A DNA stretch of 64,000 nucleotides, taken from Escherichia phage vB_EcoS_HASG4. The notes under the pieces were generated by a model. The model ran no database searches, was not told where the DNA came from, and saw only the letters and a list, made by a program, of their open reading frames with translations. The stretch lies in the sequence record NC_100331.1. One strand, 5' to 3'. Positions within the stretch are counted from its first letter, which is position 1. Each line of letters begins with the position of its first letter. The translations under genes were made by a program, and so were the position numbers. Shown here in pieces: positions 4,112-56,429 of this stretch.

Positions 4112-4209
4112 GGTAAAAACTCCTATTAGTTTAATTTAAGGGATAAGATTAACATAATGTTAATCGTTATATACCCCGAACTACTGGGGTATATAAAGTT
4201 AACACTAAA

Positions 4210-4461
4210 TTACAAAACAGCTTCCCATTTTTCGTTGCGTTGAACAACCTTTACAACATCGCCGGATTTAACGCGAACGCTAAAAACGGTTTTGCCGTTG
4301 TTACTGCGTTCCGTTTCAGCGTATACCGCGTCGATTGTATCGAACGGCATAAGCGCCGCACCTTTAATGCGTTCGGCCTTTCCGGTTAACTCATCCGTTT
4401 TAGTAACGAAAGGAATAAAAACGGATTGACCAATTTTTGGCGCGGTAATAACGTTTTGCAT
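4210..4461 (-). CDS. hypothetical protein
   Basis: 83 aa ORF. Confidence 0.45.
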   Translation of the reverse strand: MQNVITAPKIGQSVFIPFVTKTDELTGKAERIKGAALMPFDTIDAVYAETERSNNGKTVFSVRVKSGDVVKVVQRNEKWEAVL

Positions 4462-4688
4462 AGTATAAACTCCTAGTTATTTGGGGATTATTCCGCATTA
4501 CCTGCTAGAAGGTAGCAGGTAATAAGTAACAATCCGCTCGCCAGTTTAACCAATTTAAAGAACTCCACGTAGGCCGCTATATCCCAGTTAGGGGGCGGGA
4601 TGCATTATGGTAAGCACCGACCGTCAAATTTTATCAAGTTATCGCTCTTATCGAACTGAGTACATCTTAAAACCTATCGGCTAGGTTG

Positions 4689-4892
4689 TCAAACGGTTTT
4701 TTGCAATTTTTTATGATTTTCTTTCAAGTCAATCATAATATTTCGCCAGATCATTTCTAGACCTTGCTGGCGACCTCTCTTGTACTGCGTGAATCGGTAT
4801 TTTACCGATCTTTGCGCTACTGTCAACAAATTTTTTGTTTTGCTATCTAGTGCCTTAATAGGCTTGCCAGTGATCAATAAAGTTTGTTTCAT
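4689..4892 (-). CDS. hypothetical basic protein
   Basis: 67 aa ORF. Confidence 0.3.
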   Translation of the reverse strand: MKQTLLITGKPIKALDSKTKNLLTVAQRSVKYRFTQYKRGRQQGLEMIWRNIMIDLKENHKKLQKTV

Positions 4893-5080
4893 ATCGTCGA
4901 TTCCTTATAATAGATAAGTTTACCGCCGATAGGCTTTAAGATGTACCCAATTTTTAAAGAGCGTGGCGGTAAACTTCCCGCCGTGTAGTTCGTCATTGCC
5001 GCCCTACGTGATAAATAATAGGGGATTCCCGAAAATGGCGCAACCTTATTTTTGTAAAGAAACGTAAAGACAAAATTCAC
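4889..5080 (-). CDS. hypothetical protein
   Basis: 63 aa ORF, overlaps previous stop. Confidence 0.25.
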   Translation of the reverse strand: MNFVFTFLYKNKVAPFSGIPYYLSRRAAMTNYTAGSLPPRSLKIGYILKPIGGKLIYYKESTI

Positions 5081-5685
5081 CGGACGGCGTGCGGTGACGG
5101 CCTAAAATTAAAAGAAACGGGCGCGCGAATACCACAAAACAAAGCAAATAGGCAAGTAATTTTTTCATTTATATTTGCTTTCCCCTACTTGACAAAATCT
5201 AAAAAGCTCGTGGTAGCGATAAACGGCTTATCCCCTTATGATGGGATGGCTAAAAACTTTATTGCGTTCTAGGGCGTTTTAGGCGGCTCATTTTCGATTT
5301 AACAAATATCTAACAAAAGCAAAATTGAAAAATAGTTGAAAAAGGTCTTGACTTTTAAAAATCAAGGGGCATTGCATTAATTTATAAAATAAATTAATTG
5401 ACTTTTATTTGTTGTTGTGTATTAGAAAGATAGCAAACTAATAATTACTAGAATGATAATCATGCTGGTGGATTGTAACGGCTTAAATTATTAGCAGACT
5501 ACTAATCCCGGAAAATCTCATTAGCCAACTAACTGTTTCATAAGTTATAATATACATATAAATTAATGAGAAATAATAATTATAAGAAAACGTAACCGAT
5601 AGGAATAATAACTATAAAAATAATCACTACTATAATAATAACTATAAGAAACTATCGGCCTAAGTGAGAACCACTATCATTTAAG

Positions 5686-5706
5686 TTATCCACAAAGTTA
5701 TCCACA
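5686..5706 (+). promoter_or_regulatory. two tandem DnaA-box consensus sites (TTATCCACA x2)
   Basis: gttatccacaaagttatccacagc read directly, in AT-rich 1 kb intergenic region. Confidence 0.6.
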
Positions 5707-6060
5707 GCACTTTTTGACTTGACACGATATGCGGCGATACAAGGACTTTTGCTCAGACTTACCCACAGGTTATCCTACTGTATAAATATACAAGGTAAAA
5801 AGATAGTGTTAACAACTGCAATCAATTTTAAGCGGCCTAAATCGCTTTCTAACGAGCAAAACGCTGTAGGGTAATATTAAAGTAAAGCCTCAACGTGTCG
5901 GCCTGGTGGCTTCGCCGTGTTTTGCTCTTTACTATACCGCTGCGCGGTTAGCATAAAAATAAGCGTTAGGCAAGGAAAATAAAAAGGTAAAATAATATTT
6001 GCCCCTAGAAAGAAAATACCTTTATCATTCACTCACCGATTAACGAGGGAGGCCGAACAA

Positions 6061-7053
6061 ATGAGGCTTTATAAACCAGATAACGCAACCGTCTTAAAAG
6101 GTGCATTGCGCAACCTGCTGGATGGTAGCAGAACAACCAGCATTAAACATTTTGTTTTCAATATTGAAACACTTCATCGTAATTTTCTTGATGATTACGA
6201 TGCTTATAATATGAATAGTTTTCTACCGTTATATAATCAAGGGGCAACGCTTGTTTTATATAATCAGGAATCTCACTTGCTTACTAGTCGAGGGCCAGAT
6301 ACTGATTTTATTATAGTGAAAGGCAGTACAGTAAAAGCCTATGATGCGGGGGCGGGCTTAGAAGTTTTCACGATAGAAAATTATGAGCCTTATGATAAGG
6401 ATCTTTATGACGTAGAAAATTTTCTCGATTCATTTTGGCGTTATTTATCAATTGGGTGGAATCGGTCGGATTATGACGGGTATCGTTTTGCGGCTGTAAT
6501 GGCTTTTGATGATAACGGTAATTTTTTGTTACCGTCGGAATTATACCCGTATGTATATAATGATTTAATAGAGGAGGCTGGTTTTACTTTCTGGAAAGAT
6601 GAAGATCAGCCTATTGACAATATAGAAAACCATGCTGTAAATTCTAACACTCAAAGCGTTAACACTCAAACTACTGAAAACAAAGGAAAAAATACCATGA
6701 CCAAGATCGCTAATATCGTTGCCGCTAATAAATCCGCTGTTGTAAATGCTGCAAAACTGGAAGCGGGTAAAATTGCACTGACTCAAATCACGAAAGTAGC
6801 GGCTAAAAAAGCGCCGTTTATGATTAAAGGTTATATTGATACGCCGATTGGTCGTGTAGTGATCGCTAACCTATTGAGTGTAGCGGTTGACCAGTACGCC
6901 CCAACTAACCAAAAGGCAAAAGCGGTAGCAGGCGCGGCTATGGAAGCGGCAATGCTGGAAATGGTGCAAAGTTTTAACATCGCTGAAATGATTGATGAAA
7001 TGGTAAAAGGTATCGATATTTCTACTTTTACCACTAACACCGAAAGCGAGTAA
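6061..7053 (+). CDS. hypothetical protein
   Basis: 330 aa; RBS GAGGGAGG upstream. Confidence 0.65.
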   Translation: MRLYKPDNATVLKGALRNLLDGSRTTSIKHFVFNIETLHRNFLDDYDAYNMNSFLPLYNQGATLVLYNQESHLLTSRGPDTDFIIVKGSTVKAYDAGAGLEVFTIENYEPYDKDLYDVENFLDSFWRYLSIGWNRSDYDGYRFAAVMAFDDNGNFLLPSELYPYVYNDLIEEAGFTFWKDEDQPIDNIENHAVNSNTQSVNTQTTENKGKNTMTKIANIVAANKSAVVNAAKLEAGKIALTQITKVAAKKAPFMIKGYIDTPIGRVVIANLLSVAVDQYAPTNQKAKAVAGAAMEAAMLEMVQSFNIAEMIDEMVKGIDISTFTTNTESE

Positions 7054-7118
7054 TAATATTTAGCGGGGATTATTTCCCCGCTTTACTATTCCCTTGTTAA
7101 CTAATAGGAGGCTAACTA

Positions 7119-7613
7119 ATGGCTGAGGAAAAATACGGCTTCTCGCTAGGGGAAGTGAGCACGGCTAAACACGATATGATCATTTTAGTTGATTGTCATA
7201 CTGGCTATTGCGGGGAAGGGAACACCGAAGAATATTTTGTTCCTGCTGGTACGGATCTGGACGCTTTAGCTCACGAAATGGCTATGGATAATGCTTCTCG
7301 TTTTGGCAGCGATGGCTATGAAGACGAGGATACTGGCGAATGGTATGAAAATGAAAACGTATACGCAAGTCTTTATCATTATCAGTTAAGTAAATCCGGC
7401 ACATATGTAAATGGCGGCGATCCTATTAATTCCGTTGTGAAATTAATTATTAAATATGGTGGCGTCGAGATAATTGATAACAAAGCGGTAATATATGCAA
7501 ACCGATTAAAACAGCTTGTTTATATTCCTGATAATACCCGATGGGAGGAATACGCTGTTTTGCATGACGAATTGAAACGATGTTTCAATATTGAAGCCCT
7601 ACAAGTAGTCTAA
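7119..7613 (+). CDS. hypothetical protein
   Basis: 164 aa; RBS AGGAGG. Confidence 0.65.
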   Translation: MAEEKYGFSLGEVSTAKHDMIILVDCHTGYCGEGNTEEYFVPAGTDLDALAHEMAMDNASRFGSDGYEDEDTGEWYENENVYASLYHYQLSKSGTYVNGGDPINSVVKLIIKYGGVEIIDNKAVIYANRLKQLVYIPDNTRWEEYAVLHDELKRCFNIEALQVV

Positions 7614-7718
7614 TGTAAAGTTTTGTAAAGGTCGCCTTTTATGGTGGCCTTTTTTGTTATAATGCCTTTACACCAAAACGGTGGATTGAAAATTTTCCCA
7701 AAAATTTGGAGGCTTAAA

Positions 7719-7949
7719 ATGGTTGCATACTCTTCTGCTAGTCATCTGTTTACCGCGCAAGGCTGGGTATCTAATCGCGTCATTATTCATGAAATGGTGC
7801 AGGAGTTCGGCATTGCTAAAACGTATAATACCATTCAGGAACTATATAACGCCGATAAAATCGATCAGCAAACGGCTGGCTTTTTGCTGGATACCCTGAA
7901 AGCTGAACATTGCACTAAAAAGCAAGCTGCAAAAATTGTCTTAATGTAA
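7719..7949 (+). CDS. hypothetical protein
   Basis: ORF 7641-7949 trimmed to internal ATG preceded by GGAGG. Confidence 0.5.
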   Translation: MVAYSSASHLFTAQGWVSNRVIIHEMVQEFGIAKTYNTIQELYNADKIDQQTAGFLLDTLKAEHCTKKQAAKIVLM

Positions 7950-7950
7950 T

Positions 7951-7985
7951 TAATAACGGGGGGGGGGTATTATATCCCCCGATAA
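7951..7985 (+). terminator. G10-tract hairpin (terminator-like)
   Basis: aataacggggggggggtattatatccccc; 10 G then 5 C. Confidence 0.4.
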
Positions 7986-8002
7986 CTAGGAGGCTATCAC
8001 AA

Positions 8003-8152
8003 ATGGTTATTTTTCGAGCTATTTTAGCGGGTATCTTGGGCGCTATTTTATCGTTATTTGCAATAGCTTTCGGTGTTCACGCCGTTATTATCGGCGCGGG
8101 TATCGCCGCATTTTCTTATCTGCTGGGCTGCATGACTAGTAAAGGAGAATAA
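8003..8152 (+). CDS. small hydrophobic peptide
   Basis: 49 aa, single TM-like helix, RBS AGGAGG. Confidence 0.45.
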   Translation: MVIFRAILAGILGAILSLFAIAFGVHAVIIGAGIAAFSYLLGCMTSKGE

Positions 8153-8154
8153 AA

Positions 8155-8367
8155 ATGATTCGTAACGTTTCCCTTGCACGTTCGAAAGGCTTTAGGCTGG
8201 TGGACGTTAACACGTTCGAGCGTGAAGATTGTAAAATCGAATATGTAGCACGTAACAAAAATGCCTTTCGTGTTACTGAGAAAAAATTCGACAAGCGCGG
8301 CAACGTGATCGCTGAAACAGTTAAACATTTTGCCACCTTTTATGCTGCGTTTCGTGGGGTATTATAA
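8155..8367 (+). CDS. hypothetical protein
   Basis: 70 aa; RBS AAAGGAGAA. Confidence 0.5.
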   Translation: MIRNVSLARSKGFRLVDVNTFEREDCKIEYVARNKNAFRVTEKKFDKRGNVIAETVKHFATFYAAFRGVL

Positions 8368-8368
8368 A

Positions 8369-8713
8369 ATGGTTATTTATGAAGGCAACCGCTTTGTTAC
8401 TAATTGCCGTCCGGCATTACTAGCAAACTACTTAAATCAGCTTTCCCCAGCTTATAAGGGCGTTATTAATATTTATGAGGGCAAGGCGCATTATAAAATC
8501 AATGCGGTCGTTGCCCGTGAACTAGCGTTTCAATTTTTGACCTTTGCATCTTGTGACGTTCAGGTCATGGGTGAGGCATTAATTGCAGAAAATGAAGATG
8601 ATTTTATTAATATTTTCCGCAAGATATGCACCGAGCGCCTGATCATGAAAGGCGCTTATATTCAATCCACTGCGGATAGTATTGAAACAGCGTTTCGAAA
8701 GGTGGCACAATGA
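8369..8713 (+). CDS. hypothetical protein
   Basis: ORF 8330-8713 trimmed to ATG abutting upstream stop. Confidence 0.5.
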   Translation: MVIYEGNRFVTNCRPALLANYLNQLSPAYKGVINIYEGKAHYKINAVVARELAFQFLTFASCDVQVMGEALIAENEDDFINIFRKICTERLIMKGAYIQSTADSIETAFRKVAQ

Positions 8714-8868
8714 AAAAGTTTTTAATAGCTGGTATGTTTCCTTTGTTGCCTTATGTAATTTGCTGGGCTTTATATGCTCATGGTGCTAGTGTTCCCGGTG
8801 TGGCTTCATTTGGTGTATCGGCTGGTTTTCTAACCGGACTATTGGCAAGCGTATATTTACGCAAATAA
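8710..8868 (+). CDS. small membrane peptide
   Basis: 52 aa hydrophobic; start overlaps upstream stop. Confidence 0.4.
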   Translation: MKKFLIAGMFPLLPYVICWALYAHGASVPGVASFGVSAGFLTGLLASVYLRK

Positions 8869-8886
8869 TTAATAACGGGAGTTATT

Positions 8887-9090
8887 ATGAGCAATAAAAT
8901 TATTGTAACCAAAATCAGTACAATGGTTGATGTTTTTTACGTGCCCGATACGCCGGAGAATCGGCAAGCGGTTGAGCGTGGCGAGTATGATAAAGTGATT
9001 TATGATCACGATGGTTATTATCAGCATTTGGCGGATTCCTACGGGGAGGAGGAAAAAATCACGCATCGACTACCGGAGGAGGATTTATGA
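8887..9090 (+). CDS. hypothetical protein
   Basis: 67 aa; RBS GGGAG. Confidence 0.5.
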   Translation: MSNKIIVTKISTMVDVFYVPDTPENRQAVERGEYDKVIYDHDGYYQHLADSYGEEEKITHRLPEEDL

Positions 9091-9240
9091 AACGATGGTT
9101 TAATCACTGGTATAAACGGTTTTTAGTACGCCGTCGCAAGTCTAGGCATCAAGATGAGTGGAGGGAGTGGGCAAAGCGTAACGGTTGCCCACTACTATAA
9201 TAATCACGGGGCGCAACTAGTAAGAAGTGCCCCCAATTCT

Positions 9241-9770
9241 CAAATGAGAATCATTCTCATTTGACCGCGCCCGCGATGATTAGCCTGCTAATGGTTAGGG
9301 TGTTACGTGTCGCCTTGTGTGATCGTTAGCGTGCTAACTAATTTTCAAGCCTCCTCCAATTTTCCCCTTGTTTTAGTATCCCCGCCAAAATTAAACGCGT
9401 TAGAATGCGATTCAGGACGTTTTAAGCCTATATTAGAATTATTCACTGCATAGGAATACTGTATATTTATACAGTAGAATAACCTGGGGATAAGTCTGTG
9501 GATAACGCTTCAAAATGGCTAGGGTTCTGTCAAGTCAAATCGTGCTGTTGATAAGTCTGTGGATAACTTAAATAACAGTGTTTCTCACTTCCGTTTTTAA
9601 ATGCGAATCATTATCATTCGCATTTCACTAGCTAACCGATAATCACTCCACTTTTTAAATGAGAATCATTTCACTTCTTGAATAGTTCTCATTCCCTTTC
9701 TTAAATGCAAATCATTATCATTCGCATTTCACTTTTTAAATGAGATTGATTCTCATTATCATTCGCATTC
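9241..9770. repeat. family of palindromes (gagaatcattctc / gcgaatcattatcattcgc)
   Basis: inverted repeats at ~9241, 9596, 9655, 9697, 9735 read directly. Confidence 0.7.
9489..9567. promoter_or_regulatory. two copies of gataagtctgtggataac, each with a DnaA-box complement TGTGGATAA
   Basis: 18-bp direct repeat at 9489-9506 and 9550-9567. Confidence 0.6.
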
Positions 9771-9800
9771 AGGCGAGCAAGGCAATTGCCCTGCGCTTTT

Positions 9801-10400
9801 GTGCAAATCCGACATTTGCCCCCATGGATTACGCGTGGGCATGTATGTGCGAATCCGACAATTTTTGGTAGTGTGCAAATCCGACCCGAAAAATTTTTAT
9901 AGTGTGCGAATCCGACAATGAATTTTCCTAAAAACTCCAGCAATCACGAACTGCGTTCGAATCCTGTGGAATTAGCTAGAGTATGTGCAAATCCGACATG
10001 TGTTGAGCTGTGCGAATCCGACAAGATTTTTGTGACTTCGATTGGAGGGTGTGTGATTGTATAGGTTTGAGGAGAAGATGAGAGAGCGAGAGAAATTTTG
10101 GGACTAGAAGGATGTGGGCGCAAGATTGGTGCGGAGCACCTGATTTGCGGGGATTTTGGGGGAGAGTTGAGATAATTTGGGAAGATTTGAGATAGGTGCA
10201 GAAAAAGTAAAATTTTATTAGCTAAATGGAGCAAAATAGCTTGACAAGTGAAAATTCTTGTGGCTCTAAAAACTCAGGCAATCATGGGCCTTCGGCCCGA
10301 AATAATGCTGCTATTTTCAGGAGAGTAAGAGTTCCTAAAAACTTAGGCGTTTGTGCAAATCCGACCATAAATTTCTAGAAACACAGTGTGCAAATCCGAC
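9801..10400 (+). repeat. GTGCRAATCCGAC direct repeats (8 copies; ninth at 12153)
   Basis: copies at 9801, 9847, 9873, 9903, 9985, 10010, 10353, 10388, same orientation, irregular spacing. Confidence 0.8.
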
Positions 10401-10936
10401 AGTAATTTCTGGAAATGTGTTTTCAAAAAATGTCTCCTAGAAATAACCGCCCTCCCTATAACCGCCCTGTATAGGAAAACCGGCCTAGGATATGTAACGT
10501 TAGAGAGAAACTGCCCTAGAATGTGAGAGTTTTCCCAGAAACTTAGGAGTCTAGAAGAAAGTATTGTGCCATCCTAGCAGATGAGCGGCAACAGGTGTAT
10601 CATCTTGAATGTAAATTATGTGGTCAAAAGTTTTACTTTTATTTTAAATATAAGATCCCCCAGGGTTCTCATATAGAGCTTTGCCCCCGCCAGAAGGTCT
10701 CGTGGTGTTTCTAGCAATTTATATTAAATTACTTATTAACTTGTCCTGTCGCTCCGTATCCTCCGCTACAAGTTAGTAATTTTAAATTACTGAACCACCA
10801 CACCTTCTGTGTGGCAACTCTAAATGGTTAATTCTATTAACTCATAGAGTTATGATAACATACATTTAGCTATCTGTCAACGACAGTTTGTATTTGAGTC
10901 TCGGTACAGGTATTGTGCACCGAGACATGCAGAGTA

Positions 10937-11821
10937 CTATAATAATTCTTGGTATGCTTTTTGATATGCCTCAGTATCTGTAGGTGTATCTTTTGCTAAT
11001 GCAATTAGTTCATCCGTTATCTGAATATTCGTATTATAACGTTGGTGGAACTCGTCAGGAATTTCTAGATATCTATTTATGAACGCTGCAGCAAGCGGTG
11101 TAACTAACCCAATTTCTAGAGATAACTTAACTTGTTTCTCATAAATTAAATACTGAGAATCAGATGGGATTGGTGGGGTTACATCAATTTTTTCTGGTTC
11201 TTTTTCTGGAAGCAATGGATTGTTATACAATGCTTCATCTGGAAGTACAGATTTACGTTCCTTAAATATATAAGTTTCTAGATCAGATGCTTTAGATCCT
11301 GAGTAAACAGCGAAGATGCTAGCTTTACCTTGTGATGCCCTAACGGGCAAATAGTTAGTTGGGTAACTCTTTAATGCATCGTGAAATGGACTTCCTGAGT
11401 ATTTGTACGTATCCCCATAGAGATCATCAATATTCATTCTTTCATCTTCAAAGATATGGAAAGAGCTAAATGATGGAATGGTGAAGTATTCCATCTGTAA
11501 CCCATAAACTAAGAAACGATGTGCATATGCACTAATCTTTAAGACTGTAAATGCTTTCTCACCTTCTTTATAAGAATTGCCTTTAGAAGTAACTTGATAA
11601 CGCTTACAGAACATCTCTACTAAACGTTTCTCATTAATATTGAGTGAGGAATATAAACGTCCATTTAGCCCTAGAAGGGCATCAAACATAAATGCTAACT
11701 TATCTTTTTCTTCTTGAGACAGTTCTGGAAATGGTAATACTTTGGCATTAGGAACATTATTGTTCTCCTTAGGTTTTGTTTTACCCGCATTTTGTCTTAG
11801 TTTATCTTTAAAGTTATACAT
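10937..11821 (-). CDS. hypothetical protein
   Basis: 294 aa; RBS GGGAGATAATA. Confidence 0.6.
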   Translation of the reverse strand: MYNFKDKLRQNAGKTKPKENNNVPNAKVLPFPELSQEEKDKLAFMFDALLGLNGRLYSSLNINEKRLVEMFCKRYQVTSKGNSYKEGEKAFTVLKISAYAHRFLVYGLQMEYFTIPSFSSFHIFEDERMNIDDLYGDTYKYSGSPFHDALKSYPTNYLPVRASQGKASIFAVYSGSKASDLETYIFKERKSVLPDEALYNNPLLPEKEPEKIDVTPPIPSDSQYLIYEKQVKLSLEIGLVTPLAAAFINRYLEIPDEFHQRYNTNIQITDELIALAKDTPTDTEAYQKAYQELL

Positions 11822-11900
11822 TATTATCTCCCGTTTTTAAGGTCTGGATGACCTTCTTTTTATTTTAGAGCCTCCGTAGAGGCTCGTGTATTAGGAATTA

Positions 11901-12158
11901 TTAATCCTTTTTACTTTCGTTAATAACAGCCCCTAGTGCTTCAAGGATAGTATCATTTATACCCCCAGGCCTAAGATTATTAAAGTGAGTAACATAGATG
12001 GGGCTTCTAAAACCTTCAGTATCCACAGGTGCTACGCTTTTCATATCAGATTCAAAAGCTTCTTGGGTATGTTTCAACTGTACAGAAGGCCCATAATCTT
12101 CCCCAACTCGATAGGACTGATTAGACGACAGTGTACCACCACATGGAACATTGTGCAA
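11901..12158 (-). CDS. hypothetical protein
   Basis: 85 aa ORF. Confidence 0.4.
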   Translation of the reverse strand: MHNVPCGGTLSSNQSYRVGEDYGPSVQLKHTQEAFESDMKSVAPVDTEGFRSPIYVTHFNNLRPGGINDTILEALGAVINESKKD

Positions 12159-12209
12159 ATCCGACGTTATTTTAGGATTATTATTTAATAGTGCAATACC
12201 ACTTTTTGA

Positions 12210-12506
12210 CTATGGATCACTAACAGTGGTACTGGGGCGGTTCACTTCAGTCTTCATGAGTTTATAGCCAGCATCTATTAATGCGTTAATAAGGTTATCC
12301 GCTGGGATGCGAGCGTTGCCAAAAATCTTACGAGCGTTGTTGAGCCTACCTTCAAAATCTTTACATGCTTTAATATTAGTGTGTGCAAAGGTTAGCTTCA
12401 TAGATTTGAATTGTACAGTAGCAGTTAAATCTTTAAAGCTATAATCCCACGTATTCAGTTCATGATCTGGTACTACTTGAATAGACTGTTGTGCATATAA
12501 AGTCAT
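12210..12506 (-). CDS. hypothetical protein
   Basis: 98 aa. Confidence 0.5.
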   Translation of the reverse strand: MTLYAQQSIQVVPDHELNTWDYSFKDLTATVQFKSMKLTFAHTNIKACKDFEGRLNNARKIFGNARIPADNLINALIDAGYKLMKTEVNRPSTTVSDP

Positions 12507-12691
12507 TATTTATTCTCCAGTTTGTCTAACAGCTTATGAGCTGCTAGATTATATTGTTTAAGTTCACGATTAAGAATTTGGTTCTCACACTTTAACTCTA
12601 AATTCTTATTATTAAGAATATTGCAGACTAGTAGAAGTGCTAGTATAACTAGTAGGGAACCTACAAGCATTAAAAGAAAAAGAGTTTCCAT
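12506..12691 (-). CDS. small membrane/coiled-coil protein
   Basis: 61 aa, N-terminal hydrophobic helix. Confidence 0.45.
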   Translation of the reverse strand: METLFLLMLVGSLLVILALLLVCNILNNKNLELKCENQILNRELKQYNLAAHKLLDKLENK

Positions 12692-13131
12692 TATTTAATC
12701 TCCATTCTTAGCTTTGAAAACTTATTATACCAAACTATATGATTATCGTCAATTACAAATTTATGGTAACATGCTGGTACGGTATAAGTTCCATAATCCG
12801 TGACGCGCTGCACAACCTTGTGTGCACACAGTCGACAACCATGCCCTTCTAAATGAGATCTAGCAGTCTGCCAGTAATAACCATCATGATCTGGACAATA
12901 AATCTCGACTTGCTGCTGCATTGTTTTATAATTTACACGCTCATATCCGAAGAAAGCCCCGTGAGCTGCAACGGCTTTCTTGATAAATATAAGGTTTAGT
13001 GCTTCTTGCTGGAAGTCGGGATGTAGCTGCTTAATCTTAGTTCTATTAATAGATCCATCCGATTTAATGAACCTATTTATTGGAAAGTTGTTAGCTTCCT
13101 CGATTAATAATTCATTTACTTTCTCTCTCAT
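12691..13131 (-). CDS. Cys/His-rich hypothetical protein
   Basis: ORF 12691-13233 trimmed to ATG abutting upstream stop; CPDHDG..HGCRLCAH. Confidence 0.5.
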   Translation of the reverse strand: MREKVNELLIEEANNFPINRFIKSDGSINRTKIKQLHPDFQQEALNLIFIKKAVAAHGAFFGYERVNYKTMQQQVEIYCPDHDGYYWQTARSHLEGHGCRLCAHKVVQRVTDYGTYTVPACYHKFVIDDNHIVWYNKFSKLRMEIK

Positions 13132-13132
13132 A

Positions 13133-13411
13133 TTAAATAGTCTCACAGTTAAGGTAGAAACATTCGTAAGCATCTCCAGTAAACTCTTTATCTTGTAGTA
13201 AACACTTAGCTTGGTCTTCCGGTACTCCAGCATCTAATAATTGTTGTTTACTTGGCTTTTCAGCGAATACTTTTACAAAATACTCACCATCCTGATTATA
13301 CTCATTTATATCTCTGGTAAGGACATATACTTGCATTTGAAGTTCCTTGAAAACATAAAAGGCCAGAACAATTAAGTCCTGGCCTCTAGAATTAGTGAAG
13401 TTGTTTACCAC
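13133..13411 (-). CDS. hypothetical protein
   Basis: 92 aa. Confidence 0.5.
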   Translation of the reverse strand: MVNNFTNSRGQDLIVLAFYVFKELQMQVYVLTRDINEYNQDGEYFVKVFAEKPSKQQLLDAGVPEDQAKCLLQDKEFTGDAYECFYLNCETI

Positions 13412-13763
13412 TTCGTAACATAGTGGCCGTTTCCATAAGACCTAGCGTAGTATCACGCTTATTGATCTGTTTACCAAGTTCATCGGTACGTTTACCAATG
13501 TAAGCGTTAATAGCCATATTCATAGCTGAGGCGAGATCTTCTTTGGTTATCTCTTCGTCATCTAAGGCTAATTTAGCCAAAGAATCAAATGTGCTAGAGA
13601 GTCCTATAAGATCGGAGGTTTCTTTGGCCAAAATAGGATTAATATTATCTACTGTTACTTCTAGCATGGAGTTAACAATATCTTCTCCGTCTACTAGACC
13701 AGATTCAATATTACTCTCCCACTCCTTCATCTGCTCCAATAATGGATTTTTCTTTTCTGTCAT
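13392..13763 (-). CDS. hypothetical acidic protein
   Basis: start moved to internal ATG with GAGGA RBS. Confidence 0.5.
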   Translation of the reverse strand: MTEKKNPLLEQMKEWESNIESGLVDGEDIVNSMLEVTVDNINPILAKETSDLIGLSSTFDSLAKLALDDEEITKEDLASAMNMAINAYIGKRTDELGKQINKRDTTLGLMETATMLRSGKQLH

Positions 13764-14172
13764 GGTAGAGGTTTCCTCTGTCAGTTGGTAAGAAGGATGA
13801 TTGAGCTTTAGGCGGATGTTGTTTAGCAATCCAGTTAAGAATCAGTACACGACTAGGAACAATATCAGTGTTGTACCAGAAATCATGGACCCATTGACGA
13901 GCATCCTCAAACTTACCAAATTTATATGCTTTCTTAAATAATTCAAACCCAAAACAATCTGGTGTAAAGTCTACTTCACGATATTGAACTACTTTAGAAC
14001 CAGTTAGGTCTTGGATCGCTGCATTAATTTCTGTATGCGAGAATTTTGTTTCGTGAAACTTATTAAAGAATCGGTAGTTGAAGCGTCCGTTCGTTTCGAC
14101 AAACAACTGGATGAAGAGATCATTAAATTGGTTATCAAACCAGTAATTCTGTAGTTGTTGTAGTGCTGTCAT
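13711..14172 (-). CDS. hypothetical protein
   Basis: 153 aa. Confidence 0.5.
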   Translation of the reverse strand: MTALQQLQNYWFDNQFNDLFIQLFVETNGRFNYRFFNKFHETKFSHTEINAAIQDLTGSKVVQYREVDFTPDCFGFELFKKAYKFGKFEDARQWVHDFWYNTDIVPSRVLILNWIAKQHPPKAQSSFLPTDRGNLYHDRKEKSIIGADEGVGE

Positions 14173-14369
14173 TTACGAACTCCGTTAATTGCCACGATGA
14201 TGCCTTCGTACATAAAAGGAAGTAGTCCAGAAGTGTAGAAGATATTTTCCGTTATTCCTAGATGTTGAAAAAGTATATTAAATAATGCTGTTAGAAATAC
14301 AATCTGAGGCAGTAATACAAAATACTCAGTTACAATCTTTGGTGCCTGATAAACAAGACGTTTTATCAT
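14169..14369 (-). CDS. small membrane protein
   Basis: 66 aa hydrophobic. Confidence 0.4.
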   Translation of the reverse strand: MIKRLVYQAPKIVTEYFVLLPQIVFLTALFNILFQHLGITENIFYTSGLLPFMYEGIIVAINGVRK

Positions 14370-14468
14370 TGTTTTTAAGTCTCCTTATTACTTTGGCCTG
14401 CTCCACAATAATGAAAACTGCGAGCACTAATAGTGCTATTAGCCCCGCAGTAATTGGTACTAAATCAA

Positions 14469-14795
14469 TCATGGGAGACGCCATACGTAATTAGCTGTCT
14501 GTAGAACCTTAGGTGTGTCATCACGATACATTACTACAGACTTTGGTGAATAACTATCAGCTAGCTCTTTACGAATCATCTTACATTCTTCACCAGTATC
14601 AATATTTTTAACTATCACTTTCATATTAAGTGGTGTTAATACAGAAAGTGGTTTCCAAGAATCCTCAATTTCAATTCCTACCTTTTTCTCGATTAACATG
14701 AGAACTTCTAGCGTATCATCTGGAATGCTAATATTATTATTCACAAACTGTAGTATCTCATGTAAGGTATTTAATTCATTAAAATTAAGCTTCAT
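14469..14795 (-). CDS. hypothetical protein
   Basis: 108 aa. Confidence 0.5.
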   Translation of the reverse strand: MKLNFNELNTLHEILQFVNNNISIPDDTLEVLMLIEKKVGIEIEDSWKPLSVLTPLNMKVIVKNIDTGEECKMIRKELADSYSPKSVVMYRDDTPKVLQTANYVWRLP

Positions 14796-15030
14796 CTTTA
14801 AGAATATCCTCTACCATATCACAAGACTGTTGCAATTCATCAGCAATGCGCTTAACATCTGTTTTTGTTACTTTACCTATTAACATCACCAGTAACATAG
14901 AAAGTATAATAAGTGGAACTGGGATAACAAACAGTGCTACCTTACCTACATTCTTTGGCGTCCATGTGTGGTACTTGGTAACCAGTACACCAACCACAAT
15001 TAGATAAAACGCTAGAATAAACATCATCAT
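14785..15030 (-). CDS. membrane protein
   Basis: 81 aa, two TM-like segments. Confidence 0.5.
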   Translation of the reverse strand: MMMFILAFYLIVVGVLVTKYHTWTPKNVGKVALFVIPVPLIILSMLLVMLIGKVTKTDVKRIADELQQSCDMVEDILKDEA

Positions 15031-15308
15031 TTTTTAATCTCCGTAATTATCTGTGCACGCATTACTTTATTAGGTAATTTTGTATTCCCAGCTATTGCTT
15101 CAATATTATTTAGTTTTTCTTTTAGAATATCTGAGCGTCTCTGTGCTAATTCAATATCTTGCTCTTGCTCTAGCAAACGGTGGTGTAGTCCATCATTAGT
15201 AATAAGCATATTTTCCATGCTTTTTCGTGCATTCACAATCCCAATAACTCCGCCAATCGCTACTAGTGTAGTAAGAACTAGTAACCCAATAAGAATTTCA
15301 ATCAACAT
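15027..15308 (-). CDS. membrane-anchored coiled-coil protein
   Basis: 93 aa, N-terminal TM. Confidence 0.5.
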   Translation of the reverse strand: MLIEILIGLLVLTTLVAIGGVIGIVNARKSMENMLITNDGLHHRLLEQEQDIELAQRRSDILKEKLNNIEAIAGNTKLPNKVMRAQIITEIKK

Positions 15309-26671: not shown

Positions 26672-26792
26672 ATTACCTCCATTAAGTCTTTTGAATTAAC
26701 CTAATGTGGGTGAATTTTATTATACATAAATTATTTACCTGTATATAGAAAAACCCCAGACTACTTATTCAATAGCTGGGGTTTGTTATTAA

Positions 26793-27107
26793 TTACAGAT
26801 CGGGGCGTTCATCTTCGAAACAGCCTGAGCTAATTCCTTCTCCGAATCCTACAAAGCCATCAAATTCATCATTTGAGATGCCCATAATCATTGCTTCCAT
26901 TTTCCTAATCTCCGAAATTTTCATGCCTGCTTTACTATTCTTATAATACTTGCGAGGGTTCCCACACATCCAACAAGAACAGATGCAAGGAGTAGTAGTG
27001 ATAATACCTAATCGCTTAGGGCTTTCTTCATGTGGAAAGACTGTCCAATACTTCTTGCGGTTGTTCTTCACACGTTGCCGGTGATGGCGTCTTAATGCTC
27101 GATCCAC
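26793..27107 (-). CDS. Cys-rich hypothetical protein
   Basis: 104 aa; CICSCWMC. Confidence 0.45.
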   Translation of the reverse strand: MDRALRRHHRQRVKNNRKKYWTVFPHEESPKRLGIITTTPCICSCWMCGNPRKYYKNSKAGMKISEIRKMEAMIMGISNDEFDGFVGFGEGISSGCFEDERPDL

Positions 27108-27188
27108 ACATTTCTCCTAAAACTTGGGAGATAAATGGAATTTGCTCGACTACCTCACGTAGTTCGGAGAAATCGTATCCAAACCCCA

Positions 27189-27557
27189 TTACATCGCCTG
27201 AGTAAATGTACGACTAATAACGTCGTTCTGCTGTTCACGAGTCAGTGCATTAAAACGTACAGCGTACCCTGAAACACGGATAGTTAATTGAGGGTATTTT
27301 TCAGGATGTTTCTGTGCATCCAAAAGCTGATCACGGCTTAATACATTGACATTTAGGTGCTGACCGCCTTCGATTTGAGGGGCGACTTCCACTTTGACTT
27401 CACGGAAGGCTTCGGGATCGAATTGTGGTGTGATACCTTCTAGATCTTCAACTAGAACTTTCTGTTTAAGTTCACCATTGTCGGAGTATAGCTGAATAAT
27501 CTGATTTTCATGAACAAGGTTAATTACGCCAGATTTAAGATTTTGATATGCTTTCAT
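27189..27557 (-). CDS. grcA: autonomous glycyl-radical cofactor (GrcA/YfiD-like)
   Basis: 122 aa; C-terminus [11 protein letters not shown]...[19 protein letters not shown] matches PFL/GrcA glycyl-radical domain. Confidence 0.8.
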
Positions 27558-27599
27558 TAGATCTCCCAGATGTTAGAATTTGGCTCAGCTATTTATTCT

Positions 27600-27794
27600 T
27601 TATACTTTTCCATAGTATACGGAAACTGTCTTACCAGTTTGGTTCATGACATATGCTACTTCATCTTCTTTTAAAAAGATGGCTTGGTCTACTCCAACTA
27701 TAGCCAATCTTTTATTTCTAGGATTAAAGCTTACACTTTTGCCTGTATGAATCTGTTCCCCATTCTTGGCTGACATTATTTTAATTGTTAACAT
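27600..27794 (-). CDS. hypothetical protein
   Basis: 64 aa; RBS AGGAG. Confidence 0.45.
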   Translation of the reverse strand: MLTIKIMSAKNGEQIHTGKSVSFNPRNKRLAIVGVDQAIFLKEDEVAYVMNQTGKTVSVYYGKV

Positions 27795-27831: not shown

Positions 27832-27907
27832 TGGTAGTTAGTAGTGGATTTGAACCACTGTAGTCGCTCCGTATGAAGGAGGTGCATAACCACTCTGCCA
27901 ACTAACT
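27832..27907 (-). tRNA. tRNA with CAT anticodon (Met or Ile-lysidine type)
   Basis: hand fold: acceptor AGTTAGT/ACTAACT, loop TTCATAC, T-arm GTGGTTCAAATCCAC, CCA encoded. Confidence 0.75.
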
Positions 27908-28003
27908 ATTATGTTTTATTAGACTAAGTAAGTATTCTTTATACTCTTTGGACCAATTAGCTTTTTTAAACTTTCCTGGACGCATAGTCTTAATTCCTAA
28001 ATT

Positions 28004-28080
28004 TGGTACTCCGGGAGGGATTTAAACCCTCGATCTCTCGGTTATCAGCCGAGTGCTTTAGATCGCTAAGCTACCGAAGC
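28004..28080 (-). tRNA. tRNA-Ile (GAT)
   Basis: anticodon arm CTCGG-CTGATAA-CCGAG; T-arm GAGGGTTTAAATCCCTC; CCA encoded. Confidence 0.8.
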
Positions 28081-28581: not shown

Positions 28582-28648
28582 TTGGTTTCCCTCTCATTAA
28601 TTTATATAAATATTATAACAAGAAATAAGAGAGAAAGCAAATGAATTT

Positions 28649-28816
28649 TTAATAAAGTTTAGTCACTTCATAAACTATACTACGAGATTCTTTATTACGT
28701 TCTATTAAATTAGCGTATGCTTTTTCAGCTTCATTTTTAGTATTAAAGTCTATAACGTGGGAGGTATTAGCTCTGTTTGATTGACTATACCAGATAACTA
28801 CTAGGAGTTTAAACAT
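28649..28816 (-). CDS. hypothetical protein
   Basis: ORF 28649-28843 trimmed to internal ATG (RBS AAGGA) to avoid tRNA overlap. Confidence 0.4.
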   Translation of the reverse strand: MFKLLVVIWYSQSNRANTSHVIDFNTKNEAEKAYANLIERNKESRSIVYEVTKLY

Positions 28817-54554: not shown

Positions 54555-56429
54555 ATGAATCGCAATGATGAACTAAAATACAAGGAAATGCAGTCCTTGA
54601 TTAGAAACTGCAAAGAAATTATTGAGGGTTCTGCTGATGAAGAGCTCCTCTTTAATAATGCGAATAAACCCTCTGAGCGTTTCCCTACACAAAGGGATAT
54701 GCTTGCAGGGGAATTGAGTAAATATCTGATTCTAGAAGAAATGCCAATTCAGATTCGAAATGCTCATATGATTGGCGATATTCACTTTCATGATGCTGAT
54801 TACGCTGCTTTAGGCATGACTAACTGTTGCCTAGTAGCCCTGGAAGATATGTTGAAAAATGGTATGAAAGTTGGTAATGCTGAAATTAGCACTCCAAACT
54901 CTATCACTACTGCGGCGGCTATTACTGCTCAGATTATCACTCAGGTTAGCTCCCATCAGTATGGTGGTACTTCTGTAGATCGCCTTGATGAAGTATTAGC
55001 CCCTTATGTTCGTAAGTCCTATGATAAAAATCATGCGTTTGCAAAACGTTGGACTAAGGATGAAGCTAAAGCATCTGTAATGGCTACGGAGATGACTGAA
55101 AAAGAAGTCTATGATGCTTGTCAGGGTCTAGAGTATGAAATCAATACGATGTTCAACTCTAATGGTCAGAGTCCATTTATTACCTTTGGTTTTGGTCTAG
55201 GAACTTCTTGGGAAGCACGTCTAGTACAGAAAGCAATACTGAAAGTACGTATGGATGGCTTAGGTATCAATAAACGTACAGCTATCTTTCCGAAACTGGT
55301 GTTTGTTCTGCGTGATGGCGTAAATATGAAGCCAGGGGATGTTAACTATGACATCAAGAAGTTAGCTATGAAATGTACTGCTGAACGTATGTATCCAGAC
55401 TATATCAGCTATGATAAGGTTGTGGAAGTTACTGGTGACTATAAAGTTTCTATGGGCTGCCGTTCATTCCTAGCTGCTGCAGAAGATGGTGAAACTGCCG
55501 GTCGTAATAACTTAGGTGTTGTTTCTGTAAACTTGCCTAGAATTGCTATCGAAGCTGAAGGAAATATTGATCTATTCTTTGATTTGCTTGAGCTACGTGT
55601 TGATACAGCGTTAAAAGCGTTGGAGTGGAGAGTTGATCGCTTAAAATACATTCAAGCTAAAGCCGCGCCCATCCTCTATATGTCAGGGGCCTTTGGGTTA
55701 CGCTTAGGGCCTGATGAATATGTATTCGATCATTTCTATAACCGTGCTTCTGTATCTCTGGGGTATATTGGTTGCCATGAAATGCTACAGTTCATGTTTG
55801 GCAAAGATGTAGATACAATGTCAGATACCTGTATTAAGTTTGTACAACGTGTTCTACAGTATATGCGGGATAGAGTGGACCAGAAGAAGGAAGAGACTCA
55901 GTTAGGTTATAGCCTGTATGCTACACCATCAGAATCCCTATGTGATCGCTTTTGTCGCCTAGACCGTGAATATTTCCCGGAACATGAAGATATTATGTCC
56001 AAAGGTTACTACACTAACTCACACCACCTCGATGTGGAGCGTAAGGTTGCTCCAAACGTGAAGTTTGATTATGAATCTAATTTTACTCCAATTGCATCTG
56101 GTGGGTGTATTTCCTACGTGGAATTACCAGACATGAAACGATTCCCGGATGCACTGGAATGGGTTATTAACTATGCTGCTAGTAAGGTTCATTACTTTGG
56201 TATTAATACTCCAGTGGATTCTTGTGGTAAATGTGGGTTCTTGGGTGAGACAGTAGCTTCTGAAGATGGATTTAAGTGCCCTATCTGTGGTAATCATGAC
56301 CCTGAAACTCTTGAAGTAACTCGTCGAGTTTGTGGGTATCTTGGAAATCCAGGCGCTCGTCCGTTTAACCCAGGCAAACAACATGAGGTTATGGGCAGGG
56401 TGAAACATCAGGATATTCGAGCTAAATAA
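54555..56429 (+). CDS. nrdD: anaerobic ribonucleotide reductase (class III) large subunit
   Basis: 624 aa; C-terminal glycyl-radical motif RVCGYLG and Cys-rich zinc site. Confidence 0.9.
   Translation: MNRNDELKYKEMQSLIRNCKEIIEGSADEELLFNNANKPSERFPTQRDMLAGELSKYLILEEMPIQIRNAHMIGDIHFHDADYAALGMTNCCLVALEDMLKNGMKVGNAEISTPNSITTAAAITAQIITQVSSHQYGGTSVDRLDEVLAPYVRKSYDKNHAFAKRWTKDEAKASVMATEMTEKEVYDACQGLEYEINTMFNSNGQSPFITFGFGLGTSWEARLVQKAILKVRMDGLGINKRTAIFPKLVFVLRDGVNMKPGDVNYDIKKLAMKCTAERMYPDYISYDKVVEVTGDYKVSMGCRSFLAAAEDGETAGRNNLGVVSVNLPRIAIEAEGNIDLFFDLLELRVDTALKALEWRVDRLKYIQAKAAPILYMSGAFGLRLGPDEYVFDHFYNRASVSLGYIGCHEMLQFMFGKDVDTMSDTCIKFVQRVLQYMRDRVDQKKEETQLGYSLYATPSESLCDRFCRLDREYFPEHEDIMSKGYYTNSHHLDVERKVAPNVKFDYESNFTPIASGGCISYVELPDMKRFPDALEWVINYAASKVHYFGINTPVDSCGKCGFLGETVASEDGFKCPICGNHDPETLEVTRRVCGYLGNPGARPFNPGKQHEVMGRVKHQDIRAK

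What the first reader, a model, noticed from the sequence alone, without database searches (positions are those of the whole stretch)
27189..27557. GrcA-like glycyl-radical spare-part protein
The C-terminal ~60 residues, including RVSGYAVRF, closely resemble the glycyl-radical domain of pyruvate formate-lyase and GrcA/YfiD. Together with nrdD this indicates investment in anaerobic host metabolism.
Basis: partly seen in the sequence, partly recalled or inferred. Interest (0 to 1): 0.5.

Follow-up and report, generated by a model that had tools for sequence, protein, structure and literature searches.

The report
T5-type phage GrcA-like spare-part protein
A T5-like phage carries a small, well-conserved gene for a stand-alone copy of the radical-bearing tail of the host's pyruvate formate-lyase, most likely to repair that oxygen-damaged enzyme during infection; this kind of gene is already known from phage T4 and E. 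coli, so the finding is correct but ordinary.

Summary
Window 27189-27557 (minus strand) is an intact 122-aa ORF. Residues 61-122 form a glycyl-radical domain: Pfam PF01228 E 3.7e-18, and 79-84% identity to the C-termini of E. coli PflB and TdcE and to GrcA. The motif RVSGYAVRF is exact, with the radical glycine at G97.

The window is a T5-like phage, 99.99% identical to Escherichia phage vB_EcoS_EASG3. The gene is the ortholog of T5.056 and a full-length homolog (52% identity) of T4 vs.6/Y06I. Y06I is one of only two biochemically validated spare parts for oxygen-cleaved pyruvate formate-lyase.

The gene is under strong purifying selection (dN/dS 0.07; 0.017 in the radical domain). It has phage-like base composition and occurs in about as many T5-like records (432) as nrdA (446). 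The phage encodes no activase, and the protein has no cysteine. It must therefore use host PflA and dock onto host PFL; this step is inferred, not shown.

It misses NCBI's GrcA equivalog cut-off because its N-terminal half has diverged. Public records already annotate it as GrcA-like, or mislabel it "pyruvate formate-lyase". Novelty is low and the T5-type protein itself is untested.

The parts
27189..27557 (-). CDS of the GrcA-like stand-alone glycyl-radical protein (122 aa plus stop). It is the ortholog of T5.056 and EASG3_00056.
   Evidence: ORF. It is 100% nt-identical to EASG3_00056, 95% aa-identical to T5.056, and matches PHROG 1209 over its full length, E 8e-48. dN/dS is 0.068 over 29 alleles.
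27192..27377 (-). C-terminal glycyl-radical domain, residues 61-122 ([12 protein letters not shown]...RVSGYAVRF...TFTQAM).
   Evidence: Pfam PF01228. Matches PflB 698-759 at E 5e-27 and GrcA 6owr at E 1.4e-30. Identity is 79-84% to GrcA, PflB and TdcE. dN/dS is 0.017. The model's C-domain matches 6owr and PFL structures.
27252..27278 (-). Motif RVSGYAVRF, residues 94-102. The predicted radical glycine G97 is the GGG codon at 27267-27269.
   Evidence: Read directly from the sequence. The motif is invariant in all 32 homologs aligned and in PflB, TdcE, GrcA and T4 Vs.6.
27378..27557 (-). Divergent N-terminal half, residues 1-60. It is phage-type and begins MKAYQ, as in T4 Vs.6.
   Evidence: BLASTP finds no alignment to GrcA residues 1-50, but the alignment to T4 Vs.6 is full length. 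Profile-profile comparison against bacterial GrcA N-halves gives probability 76%, E 2.3e-5, colinear. dN/dS is 0.11. AlphaFold predicts four beta strands with pLDDT about 77.
27563..27567 (-). Shine-Dalgarno-like GGGAG, 5 nt upstream of the ATG.
   Evidence: Read from the sequence. This is a consensus match only.
28586..28652 (-). Likely promoter of the transcription unit. It is the homolog of the promoter annotated as P11 in the T5 record.
   Evidence: 95.5% identical over 67 nt to T5 28597-28671 and contains TTGCTT...TATAAT. Its function is inferred from the T5 annotation. The generic promoter scan was not above chance.
26749..26781 (-). Rho-independent terminator that closes the unit, after the T5.055 homolog.
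   Evidence: 100% identical to the terminator annotated in T5. It is a CCCCAG...CTGGGG hairpin followed by TTTTT, with RNAfold -19 kcal/mol. EASG3 also annotates it.
26793..27107 (-). Downstream co-transcribed ORF, the T5.055 homolog (about 103 aa, Cys-rich CICSCWMC). Function unknown.
   Evidence: ORF. No Pfam hit; matches PHROG 4499 and 6828. dN/dS in this frame is 0.03-0.13.
27600..27794 (-). Upstream 64-aa ORF in the same predicted unit. It is absent at this position in T5.
   Evidence: ORF. Matches PHROG 3909 at E 6e-34, function unknown. In T5, tRNA-Met abuts T5.056 directly.
27832..28080 (-). tRNA-Met(CAT) at 27832-27907 and tRNA-Ile(GAT) at 28004-28080, upstream in the same predicted unit. 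This is the 3' edge of the phage tRNA cluster.
   Evidence: ARAGORN and the EASG3 and T5 annotations.
54555..56429 (+). Context only: phage nrdD (class III anaerobic ribonucleotide reductase), the second glycyl-radical protein of the window. It has its own RRVCGYLG radical site.
   Evidence: Pfam NRDD E 1e-171 and Gly_radical E 7e-23, scored on the EASG3 nrdD (L003), which is 100% nt-identical to the window ORF. The window ORF is 54% identical to E. coli NrdD. C-terminal sequence. No similarity to the GrcA-like protein (BLASTP E 5.7).

Best explanation
The gene encodes a phage version of the 'autonomous glycyl radical cofactor' (GrcA/YfiD-type spare part). It is expressed early in infection from a sigma-70 promoter, within a unit that also carries phage tRNAs. 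The 122-aa protein has no cysteine and no catalytic core. Its C-terminal 62 residues copy the piece of host pyruvate formate-lyase that carries the radical glycine. The proposed mechanism has three steps. (1) Host PFL-activating enzyme PflA, a radical-SAM enzyme that the phage lacks, abstracts a hydrogen from G97 within RVSGYAV. (2) When oxygen cleaves host PflB (or TdcE) at its own glycyl radical, Gly734, the phage protein docks into the damaged enzyme, helped by its N-terminal half. (3) It supplies a new radical glycine next to the host catalytic cysteines and so restores conversion of pyruvate to acetyl-CoA and formate, with ATP made via acetate kinase. T5 degrades host DNA early, so the host cannot resynthesise PflB or GrcA. 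A phage-encoded spare part would keep fermentative energy supply running in micro-oxic gut conditions. The sequence, conservation, phylogeny and absence of an activase are shown here. Activation by PflA, docking to cleaved PFL and any benefit to the phage are inferred from the T4 and E. coli homologs.
For: - **Domain identity.** Pfam Gly_radical E 3.7e-18. Gapless match to PflB 698-759 (E 5e-27) and to GrcA 6owr (E 1.4e-30). Identity to GrcA, PflB and TdcE is 48, 49 and 51 of 61, with RVSGYAVRF invariant.
- **Link to a validated spare part.** Full-length homology to T4 Vs.6/Y06I, 52% identity, E 5e-39. PMC8683613 states that Y06I and YfiD are the two validated spare parts: PFL-AE installs the radical on them and they restore activity to O2-cleaved PFL.
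- **Structure.** The AlphaFold C-domain matches YfiD and PFL structures.
- **A functional gene.** dN/dS is 0.068 overall and 0.017 in the radical domain.
- **A long-resident, near-core gene.** GC 40.7% and GC3 31.7% resemble phage genes, not host grcA or pflB. It is found in 432 T5-like records against 446 for nrdA.
- **Cannot act alone.** The sequence has no cysteine, and the window and the rest of the EASG3 genome have no PflA or NrdG homolog (tblastn).
- **Host target present.** All 5426 E. coli genomes gave a match, and pflB is the feature under every best hit listed.
- **Transcription signals.** The T5-annotated promoter and terminator that bracket the unit are conserved.
- **Host shut-off.** T5 triggers rapid host DNA degradation (abstract of bioRxiv 10.64898/2026.04.02.716235, listed).
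Against: - No experiment on the T5-type protein was found.
- It scores below NCBI's equivalog cut-offs for GrcA (121 against 170), GrcA3 and GrcA2.
- In YfiD the N-terminal half is needed for binding cleaved PFL and for efficient activation (PMC8683613). Here that half is only about 26% identical to GrcA, and its homology is only moderately supported (hhalign probability 76%).
- AlphaFold predicts a beta-sheet N-half, whereas YfiD's is disordered by NMR, so the binding mode could differ.
- No benefit to the phage has been demonstrated, even for T4.
Confidence: 0.8

Rival explanations
1. It is a spare part, or radical donor, for the phage's own anaerobic ribonucleotide reductase NrdD, which is also cleaved by oxygen at its glycyl radical, rather than for host PFL.
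For: nrdD lies in the same window. Both genes occur in about 400 T5-like records. T4 also carries both nrdD and vs.6 (T4 nrdD is from general knowledge).
Against: The two proteins show no detectable similarity (BLASTP E 5.7). NrdD has a different radical site, RRVCGYLGNP, next to a Zn-ribbon. The GrcA-like domain is about 80% identical to PflB and TdcE. The two genes lie 27 kb apart in different transcription units.
Confidence: 0.04
2. It acts against the host as a decoy. It would soak up PflA activity or occupy PFL without restoring catalysis, shutting down or redirecting host fermentation.
For: The divergent N-terminal half could change what the protein binds. Phage early genes often inhibit host enzymes (general knowledge).
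Against: The radical loop and every position invariant in functional spare parts and in PFL are retained, under very strong constraint (dN/dS 0.017). A decoy would not need this. The T4 homolog restores rather than inhibits PFL activity (PMC8683613).
Confidence: 0.05
3. It preferentially serves another host glycyl-radical enzyme, such as TdcE (2-ketobutyrate formate-lyase), rather than PflB.
For: The C-domain is marginally closest to TdcE: 51/61 identical, against 49/61 for PflB and 48/61 for GrcA. The last 20 residues, [20 protein letters not shown], resemble TdcE most.
Against: A difference of 2-3 residues in 61 is within noise. In trees, the T5-type groups with the stand-alone proteins and is split from both E. 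coli PflB and TdcE C-termini with 98-100% bootstrap support. Other host GREs score far lower: YbiW 50 bits against 97 for PflB.
Confidence: 0.08
4. It is a non-functional remnant of a captured host pflB or grcA 3' end.
For: Only the C-terminal 62 residues match host genes at the DNA level, 74.7% to pflB.
Against: The ORF is intact in all 32 T5-like genes examined (30 IMG/VR loci, T5 and the window), with dN/dS 0.068, and even the N-half is constrained at 0.11. Composition is phage-like. There is a full-length phage family, PHROG 1209. Homologs occur in 1583 phage records.
Confidence: 0.01

Closest known systems
T4 Vs.6 (= Y06I), the phage T4 autonomous glycyl radical cofactor
   Same: It is a stand-alone protein of about 120 aa in a virulent coliphage. 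The alignment is full length (52% identity, E 5e-39) and both begin MKAYQ. The RVSGYAVRF loop is identical. Both fall in the same PHROG-type family. PMC8683613 states that Y06I is activated by PFL-AE and rescues O2-cleaved PFL.
   Different: T4's C-domain is 97% identical to E. coli GrcA, while the T5-type is only 79% identical to either. The T5-type forms its own clade with 94-100% bootstrap support. The N-half has extra residues (VINLV..., ELKQK) relative to T4. The T5-type has not been tested biochemically.
E. coli GrcA/YfiD (PDB 6owr; NCBIfam TIGR04365)
   Same: Similar size (127 against 122 aa). The C-terminal radical domain is 79% identical. The model's C-domain superposes on 6owr with TM 0.76 normalised to the target. 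The N-half is probably homologous and colinear (hhalign E 2.3e-5).
   Different: The score is below the equivalog cut-off (121 against 170 bits), and only residues 50-122 match. The conserved bacterial N-terminal motifs (GIQIT, NSxWLLD, EARC) are absent. Full-length trees exclude it from the bacterial GrcA core with 96% support. The phage lineage has Q at the position 'DAQ', where bacteria have V or I.
[quoted passage not shown]
   Same: Residues 61-122 are 80-84% identical to the last 62 residues of PflB and TdcE.
   Different: The protein is 122 aa, not about 760 aa. It has no catalytic Cys-Cys pair (no cysteine at all) and no barrel. TIGR01255 scores 86 bits against a cut-off of 994. It is not a formate-lyase, so labels such as 'pyruvate formate-lyase', '2-ketobutyrate formate-lyase', 'acetyltransferase-related' and 'ribonucleotide reductase subunit' are misnomers.

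Membership tests
Autonomous glycyl radical cofactor (GrcA/YfiD/Y06I spare-part proteins) | Small stand-alone protein (about 120-130 aa) without the catalytic core of a glycyl radical enzyme | tested here: met
   The ORF is 122 aa and contains no cysteine. Only the last 62 residues match PFL.
Autonomous glycyl radical cofactor (GrcA/YfiD/Y06I spare-part proteins) | C-terminal domain homologous to the last ~60 residues of PFL, with the radical glycine in RVSGYAV | tested here: met
   Pfam PF01228 E 3.7e-18. 49/61 identical to Pfl[10 protein letters not shown] is exact, with G97 at the PflB G734 position.
Autonomous glycyl radical cofactor (GrcA/YfiD/Y06I spare-part proteins) | Score above NCBIfam's curated equivalog cut-off for GrcA (TIGR04365), GrcA2 or GrcA3 | tested here: not met
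   121 against 170, 90.7 against 145 and 117 against 158 bits; only residues 50-122 align. It is therefore not an equivalog of bacterial GrcA by that criterion.
Autonomous glycyl radical cofactor (GrcA/YfiD/Y06I spare-part proteins) | N-terminal half homologous to that of GrcA (needed in YfiD for binding cleaved PFL) | tested here: inconclusive
   BLASTP gives no alignment. Profile-profile comparison gives probability 76%, E 2.3e-5, 41 colinear columns from residue 1. Identity is about 26%.
Autonomous glycyl radical cofactor (GrcA/YfiD/Y06I spare-part proteins) | Full-length homology to an experimentally validated member | tested here: met
   52% identity over residues 1-122 to T4 Vs.6/Y06I, E 5e-39. 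Y06I is described as validated in PMC8683613.
Autonomous glycyl radical cofactor (GrcA/YfiD/Y06I spare-part proteins) | Glycyl radical installed by PFL-activating enzyme, and activity restored to O2-cleaved PFL | not testable with these tools
   This needs EPR and enzyme assays. Indirect support only: the phage has no activase of its own, and every E. coli genome gave a match, with pflB under all the best hits listed.
Formate C-acetyltransferase (PflB/TdcE), as annotated in many phage records | Protein of about 760 aa with a ten-stranded barrel and the catalytic Cys418/Cys419 pair; TIGR01255 score of at least 994 | tested here: not met
   122 aa, no cysteine. TIGR01255 scores 85.9 bits, covering model positions 683-744 only.
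Class III ribonucleotide reductase (NrdD) radical domain | Sequence similarity to the NrdD C-terminus (RVCGY site and Zn ribbon) | tested here: not met
   BLASTP against the window's own NrdD gives E 5.7. The NrdD motif RRVCGYLG differs.

The most novel reading that the evidence does not exclude
The T5-type protein may represent a phage-specific lineage of spare parts. It forms its own clade, carries the 'DAQ' signature shared with jumbo-phage versions, and has an N-terminal half predicted to form a beta sheet rather than YfiD's disordered tail. That half could have evolved to recognise damaged host PFL differently. For example, it could repair faster, out-compete host GrcA, or prefer TdcE, at a time when host protein synthesis is off. 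If so, spare-part repair would be a widespread phage strategy, since homologs occur in about 3% of sequenced phage genomes, and not a T4 curiosity.
Probability: 0.2. Interest if true: 0.4.

Novelty: already known. Interest (0 to 1): 0.2.

Why it matters
This is a clean example of a virulent phage carrying a repair part for a host energy-metabolism enzyme that it cannot re-express once host DNA is destroyed. It suggests that T5-like phages are adapted to replicate in oxygen-fluctuating, mostly anaerobic gut habitats. The kind is already known from T4 Y06I and E. coli YfiD, and this exact gene is already flagged as GrcA-like in public records. The practical value is therefore limited to three points:
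- It corrects widespread mis-annotation as 'pyruvate formate-lyase', '2-ketobutyrate formate-lyase', 'acetyltransferase' or 'ribonucleotide reductase subunit'.
- It shows the gene is close to a core gene of E. coli and Salmonella T5-like phages and is under strong purifying selection.
- It shows the T5-type is a distinct, untested lineage with a divergent N-terminal half.

Tried and rejected
- **Activase search.** I looked for a phage-encoded activase using tblastn of E. coli PflA and NrdG against the window and the rest of the EASG3 genome, plus a CxxxCxxC motif scan. No homolog was found. The only motif hit is CICSCWMC in the 104-aa T5.055 homolog, which is far too small to be a radical-SAM enzyme and has no Pfam hit.
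- **NrdD spare part.** Rejected because there is no sequence similarity.
- **Recent capture of a host gene.** Rejected on composition, on trees that split the stand-alone proteins from PflB and TdcE, and on only 74.7% nt identity to pflB over half the gene.
- **Generic promoter and terminator scan around the gene.** Not above shuffled expectation. I used homology to T5's annotated P11 promoter and terminator instead.
- **Literature searches.** Searches for T5.056, phage GrcA, and formate-lyase in T5-like phages found no study of this protein. Two earlier searches failed on term length.
- **Phylogeny.** Deep branching among the phage lineages is unresolved; for example, T5-like plus Vibrio phage D479 has only 27-34% support.
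- **Closest host paralog.** The TdcE versus PflB versus GrcA question differs by only 2-3 residues in 61, so it is not decisive.

Full report
**1. Observation**

A GGGAG Shine-Dalgarno-like sequence lies 5 nt upstream of the ATG. The motif RVSGYAVRF is residues 94-102, and the glycine that aligns with the radical site is G97 (codon 27267-27269). The protein matches Pfam Gly_radical PF01228 at E 3.7e-18, 66 bits against a cut-off of 22.

Against solved structures, the best matches are E. coli YfiD/GrcA (6owr, E 1.4e-30, residues 46-121) and E. coli PFL (1h16 and related entries, E 5e-27). The PFL match is a gapless alignment of residues 61-122 to PflB 698-759.

**2. What the window is**

The gene is 100% identical at the nucleotide level to EASG3_00056 of Escherichia phage vB_EcoS_EASG3, a Tequintavirus of the Demerecviridae. 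The window is 99.99% identical to that genome over 15189-64000. The T5 ortholog is T5.056, annotated as 'putative acetyltransferase-related protein, IPR001150', and is 95% identical in amino acids.

At megablast sensitivity the gene is found in 432 phage records, almost all of them Salmonella or Escherichia T5-like phages. The same kind of search finds nrdA in 446 records and nrdD in 406. The gene is thus close to a core gene of this group, although the counts were not matched record by record.

Annotations in these records include 'hypothetical', 'pyruvate formate-lyase', '2-ketobutyrate formate-lyase', 'acetyltransferase-related', 'ribonucleotide reductase subunit' and 'grcA: autonomous glycyl radical cofactor'. 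The EASG3 record itself notes an 'incomplete conserved domain PRK11127 autonomous glycyl radical cofactor GrcA'.

**3. Anatomy and relatives**

I aligned the protein with sequences taken from annotated records: E. coli grcA, pflB and tdcE, T4 vs.6 and T5.056.

| Compared with the window protein | C-domain identity (61 residues from IEGGQ) | N-terminal half identity |
|---|---|---|
| E. coli TdcE | 51/61 | 16% |
| E. coli PflB | 49/61 | 16% |
| E. coli GrcA | 48/61 | 26% |
| T4 Vs.6 | 48/61 | 33% |

BLASTP against GrcA aligns only residues 51-122. BLASTP against T4 Vs.6 aligns the full length at 52% identity, E 5e-39, and both proteins begin MKAYQ. PHROG 1209, a 121-position phage family labelled 'unknown function', matches end to end at E 8e-48.

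A profile-profile comparison restricted to the N-terminal ~50 residues set phage types against bacterial GrcA. It gave probability 76%, E 2.3e-5, with 41 colinear columns starting at residue 1. The N-half is therefore probably a diverged homolog of GrcA's, but this is not proven.

NCBIfam places the protein below the equivalog cut-offs for GrcA (121 against 170), GrcA3 (117 against 158) and GrcA2 (91 against 145). It is far below the cut-off for formate C-acetyltransferase (86 against 994).

Neighbour-joining trees with bootstrap gave these results:
- The T5-like proteins form one clade (94-100%).
- All stand-alone proteins are split from the E. coli PflB and TdcE C-termini (98-100%).
- The bacterial GrcA core excludes the T5-type (96%, full length).
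- Deeper relations among the phage lineages are unresolved.

A tblastn search finds homologs in 1583 of 50,697 phage records. These include T4-like phages, jumbo phages (K64-1, SE_PL, fHe-Yen9-03), and Vibrio, Aeromonas and Providencia phages.

**4. Is it a working gene?**

Among 29 distinct alleles (30 IMG/VR loci, T5 and the window), every copy is intact. Nei-Gojobori dN/dS is 0.068 overall, 0.111 for codons 1-60 and 0.017 for codons 61-122, and only 4 of the 20 variable positions fall in the C-domain. GC is 40.7% and GC3 is 31.7%. These resemble the phage's nrd genes (GC3 33-35%), not E. coli grcA (41%) or the pflB 3' end (57%). The gene is therefore a long-resident, selected phage gene and not a recent capture or a remnant.

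**5. Structure**

AlphaFold2 was run on a 32-sequence alignment and gave mean pLDDT 71.7. It predicts four beta strands in residues 2-37 (pLDDT about 77). In the C-domain it predicts the helix, beta hairpin and helix typical of the radical domain. Foldseek against the PDB returns YfiD 6owr first (E 2e-5, TM 0.76 normalised to the target), then E. coli PFL (rmsd 2.7 A over about 50 columns) and other glycyl radical enzymes. Nothing in the PDB matches the N-half. Confidence is moderate, so the 'folded N-half' is a lead and not a result.

**6. Context**

By homology to features annotated in the T5 record, the gene lies in one early transcription unit. The unit reads as follows:
- Promoter P11: 95.5% conserved at 28586-28652 (minus strand), containing TTGCTT...TATAAT.
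- Two small ORFs.
- tRNA-Ile at 28004-28080.
- tRNA-Met at 27832-27907.
- A 64-aa ORF at 27600-27794.
- The GrcA-like gene.
- The T5.055 homolog at 26793-27107.
- A terminator that is 100% conserved at 26749-26781, with a hairpin of -19 kcal/mol.

A generic promoter and terminator scan of the region was not above chance, so these signals rest on the T5 annotation.

The window also carries nrdD at 54555-56429 (+), with its own RRVCGYLG radical site and Zn ribbon. NrdD shows no similarity to the GrcA-like protein (E 5.7). Neither the window nor the rest of the EASG3 genome encodes a PflA- or NrdG-like activase. Both phage glycyl-radical proteins must therefore rely on host activases; this is an inference.

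**7. Mechanism (best explanation, confidence about 0.8)**

The protein has no cysteine, so it cannot perform thiyl-radical chemistry itself. It retains exactly the segment of PFL that carries the radical. PMC8683613 summarises what is known for the homologs:
- YfiD and T4 Y06I receive their glycyl radical from PFL-AE.
- They bind PFL that oxygen has cleaved at Gly734 and restore its activity.
- YfiD's residues 1-60 aid binding and activation but are not needed for catalysis.

By homology, the T5-type protein should be activated at G97 by host PflA and should rescue O2-cleaved PflB, and possibly TdcE. T5 rapidly degrades host DNA (abstract listed), so the host cannot replace damaged PflB or make its own GrcA. 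That gives a rationale for a phage-encoded copy. Every biochemical step for the T5-type protein is inferred, and I found no publication on it.

**8. Rival explanations**

- **Spare part for phage NrdD:** no sequence basis.
- **Inhibitory decoy:** hard to reconcile with near-absolute conservation of the functional radical domain and with the rescuing activity of the T4 homolog.
- **Preference for TdcE:** possible, but it rests on 2-3 residues.
- **Pseudogene or remnant:** refuted.

**9. Comparison with the known, and novelty**

The protein works like GrcA and Y06I and is a full-length homolog of Y06I. It fails NCBI's equivalog threshold for bacterial GrcA because its N-half has diverged. It is certainly not a formate-lyase. 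The kind has been known since the T4 and E. coli work, and public records already flag this exact gene as GrcA-like. I therefore rate it 'already known', with interest about 0.2.

What remains open is modest: whether the distinct T5-type lineage, with its different and possibly folded N-terminal half, behaves differently from YfiD and Y06I, and whether any phage spare part gives a measurable fitness benefit.

Noticed in passing
window 27028-27189 (-) versus 26793-27107 (-): The EASG3 record annotates a 53-aa ORF that starts in a TAATG overlap with the stop of the GrcA-like gene. The T5 record instead annotates the overlapping 103-aa T5.055. Both ORFs are open in all relatives examined. In the 80-nt overlap, however, dN/dS is 0.03 in the T5.055 frame and about 1.0 in the 53-aa ORF's frame. 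The unique 5' part of the small ORF shows only weak constraint (0.31). The T5-style annotation is therefore better supported.
   Followed up: partly
window 26793-27107 (-): The T5.055 homolog lies immediately downstream in the same predicted unit. It is a conserved, basic, Cys-rich small protein (CICSCWMCGNP) with no Pfam hit. It matches only PHROG families of unknown function. Whether it has any functional link to the spare part is unknown.
   Followed up: partly
window 54555-56429 (+), and whole EASG3 genome (L001, L003, L011, L012): The phage encodes NrdD (class III RNR) but no NrdG-like activase anywhere in the genome (tblastn E<=1). It presumably depends on host NrdG. T4, by contrast, is known to carry its own nrdG (from general knowledge).
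   Followed up: partly
L005:7558-7920 (T4 vs.6) compared with L007:67-450 (E. coli grcA): T4 Vs.6 looks mosaic. Its C-domain is 59/61 identical to E. coli GrcA, while its N-half is phage-type (29% identical to GrcA; MKAYQ start shared with T5-type). This suggests relatively recent recombination or gene conversion with the host grcA in the T4 lineage. Bootstrap support for grouping the C-domain with E. coli GrcA is weak (31%).
   Followed up: partly
window 27600-27794 (-): A 64-aa ORF (PHROG 3909, function unknown) sits between tRNA-Met and the GrcA-like gene. In T5, tRNA-Met directly abuts T5.056. This is a small indel difference within the tRNA-cluster edge.
   Followed up: no
window 57288-59206 (+): Downstream of nrdD there is a run of early genes that includes a SIR2-family protein (273 aa), a HAD_SAK_2 domain protein (168 aa) and a DUF7415 protein (142 aa). 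The Pfam hits were obtained on the near-identical EASG3 copies of these genes. They were not examined further.
   Followed up: no
window 1-15239: The left end of the window, the terminal-repeat and pre-early region, is only 98.0% identical to EASG3, with 30 gaps. The rest of the window is 99.99% identical. The window therefore comes from a very close relative of the deposited record, or a differently assembled copy, and not from the record itself.
   Followed up: no
phage records H49 (Salmonella phage 1-19), P0033 (Citrobacter phage YZU-L1) and many others: Orthologs of this gene are mislabelled in GenBank as 'ribonucleotide reductase subunit', 'pyruvate formate-lyase', '2-ketobutyrate formate-lyase' or 'acetyltransferase-related protein'. 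PHROG 1209 still lists the family as 'unknown function'.
   Followed up: yes
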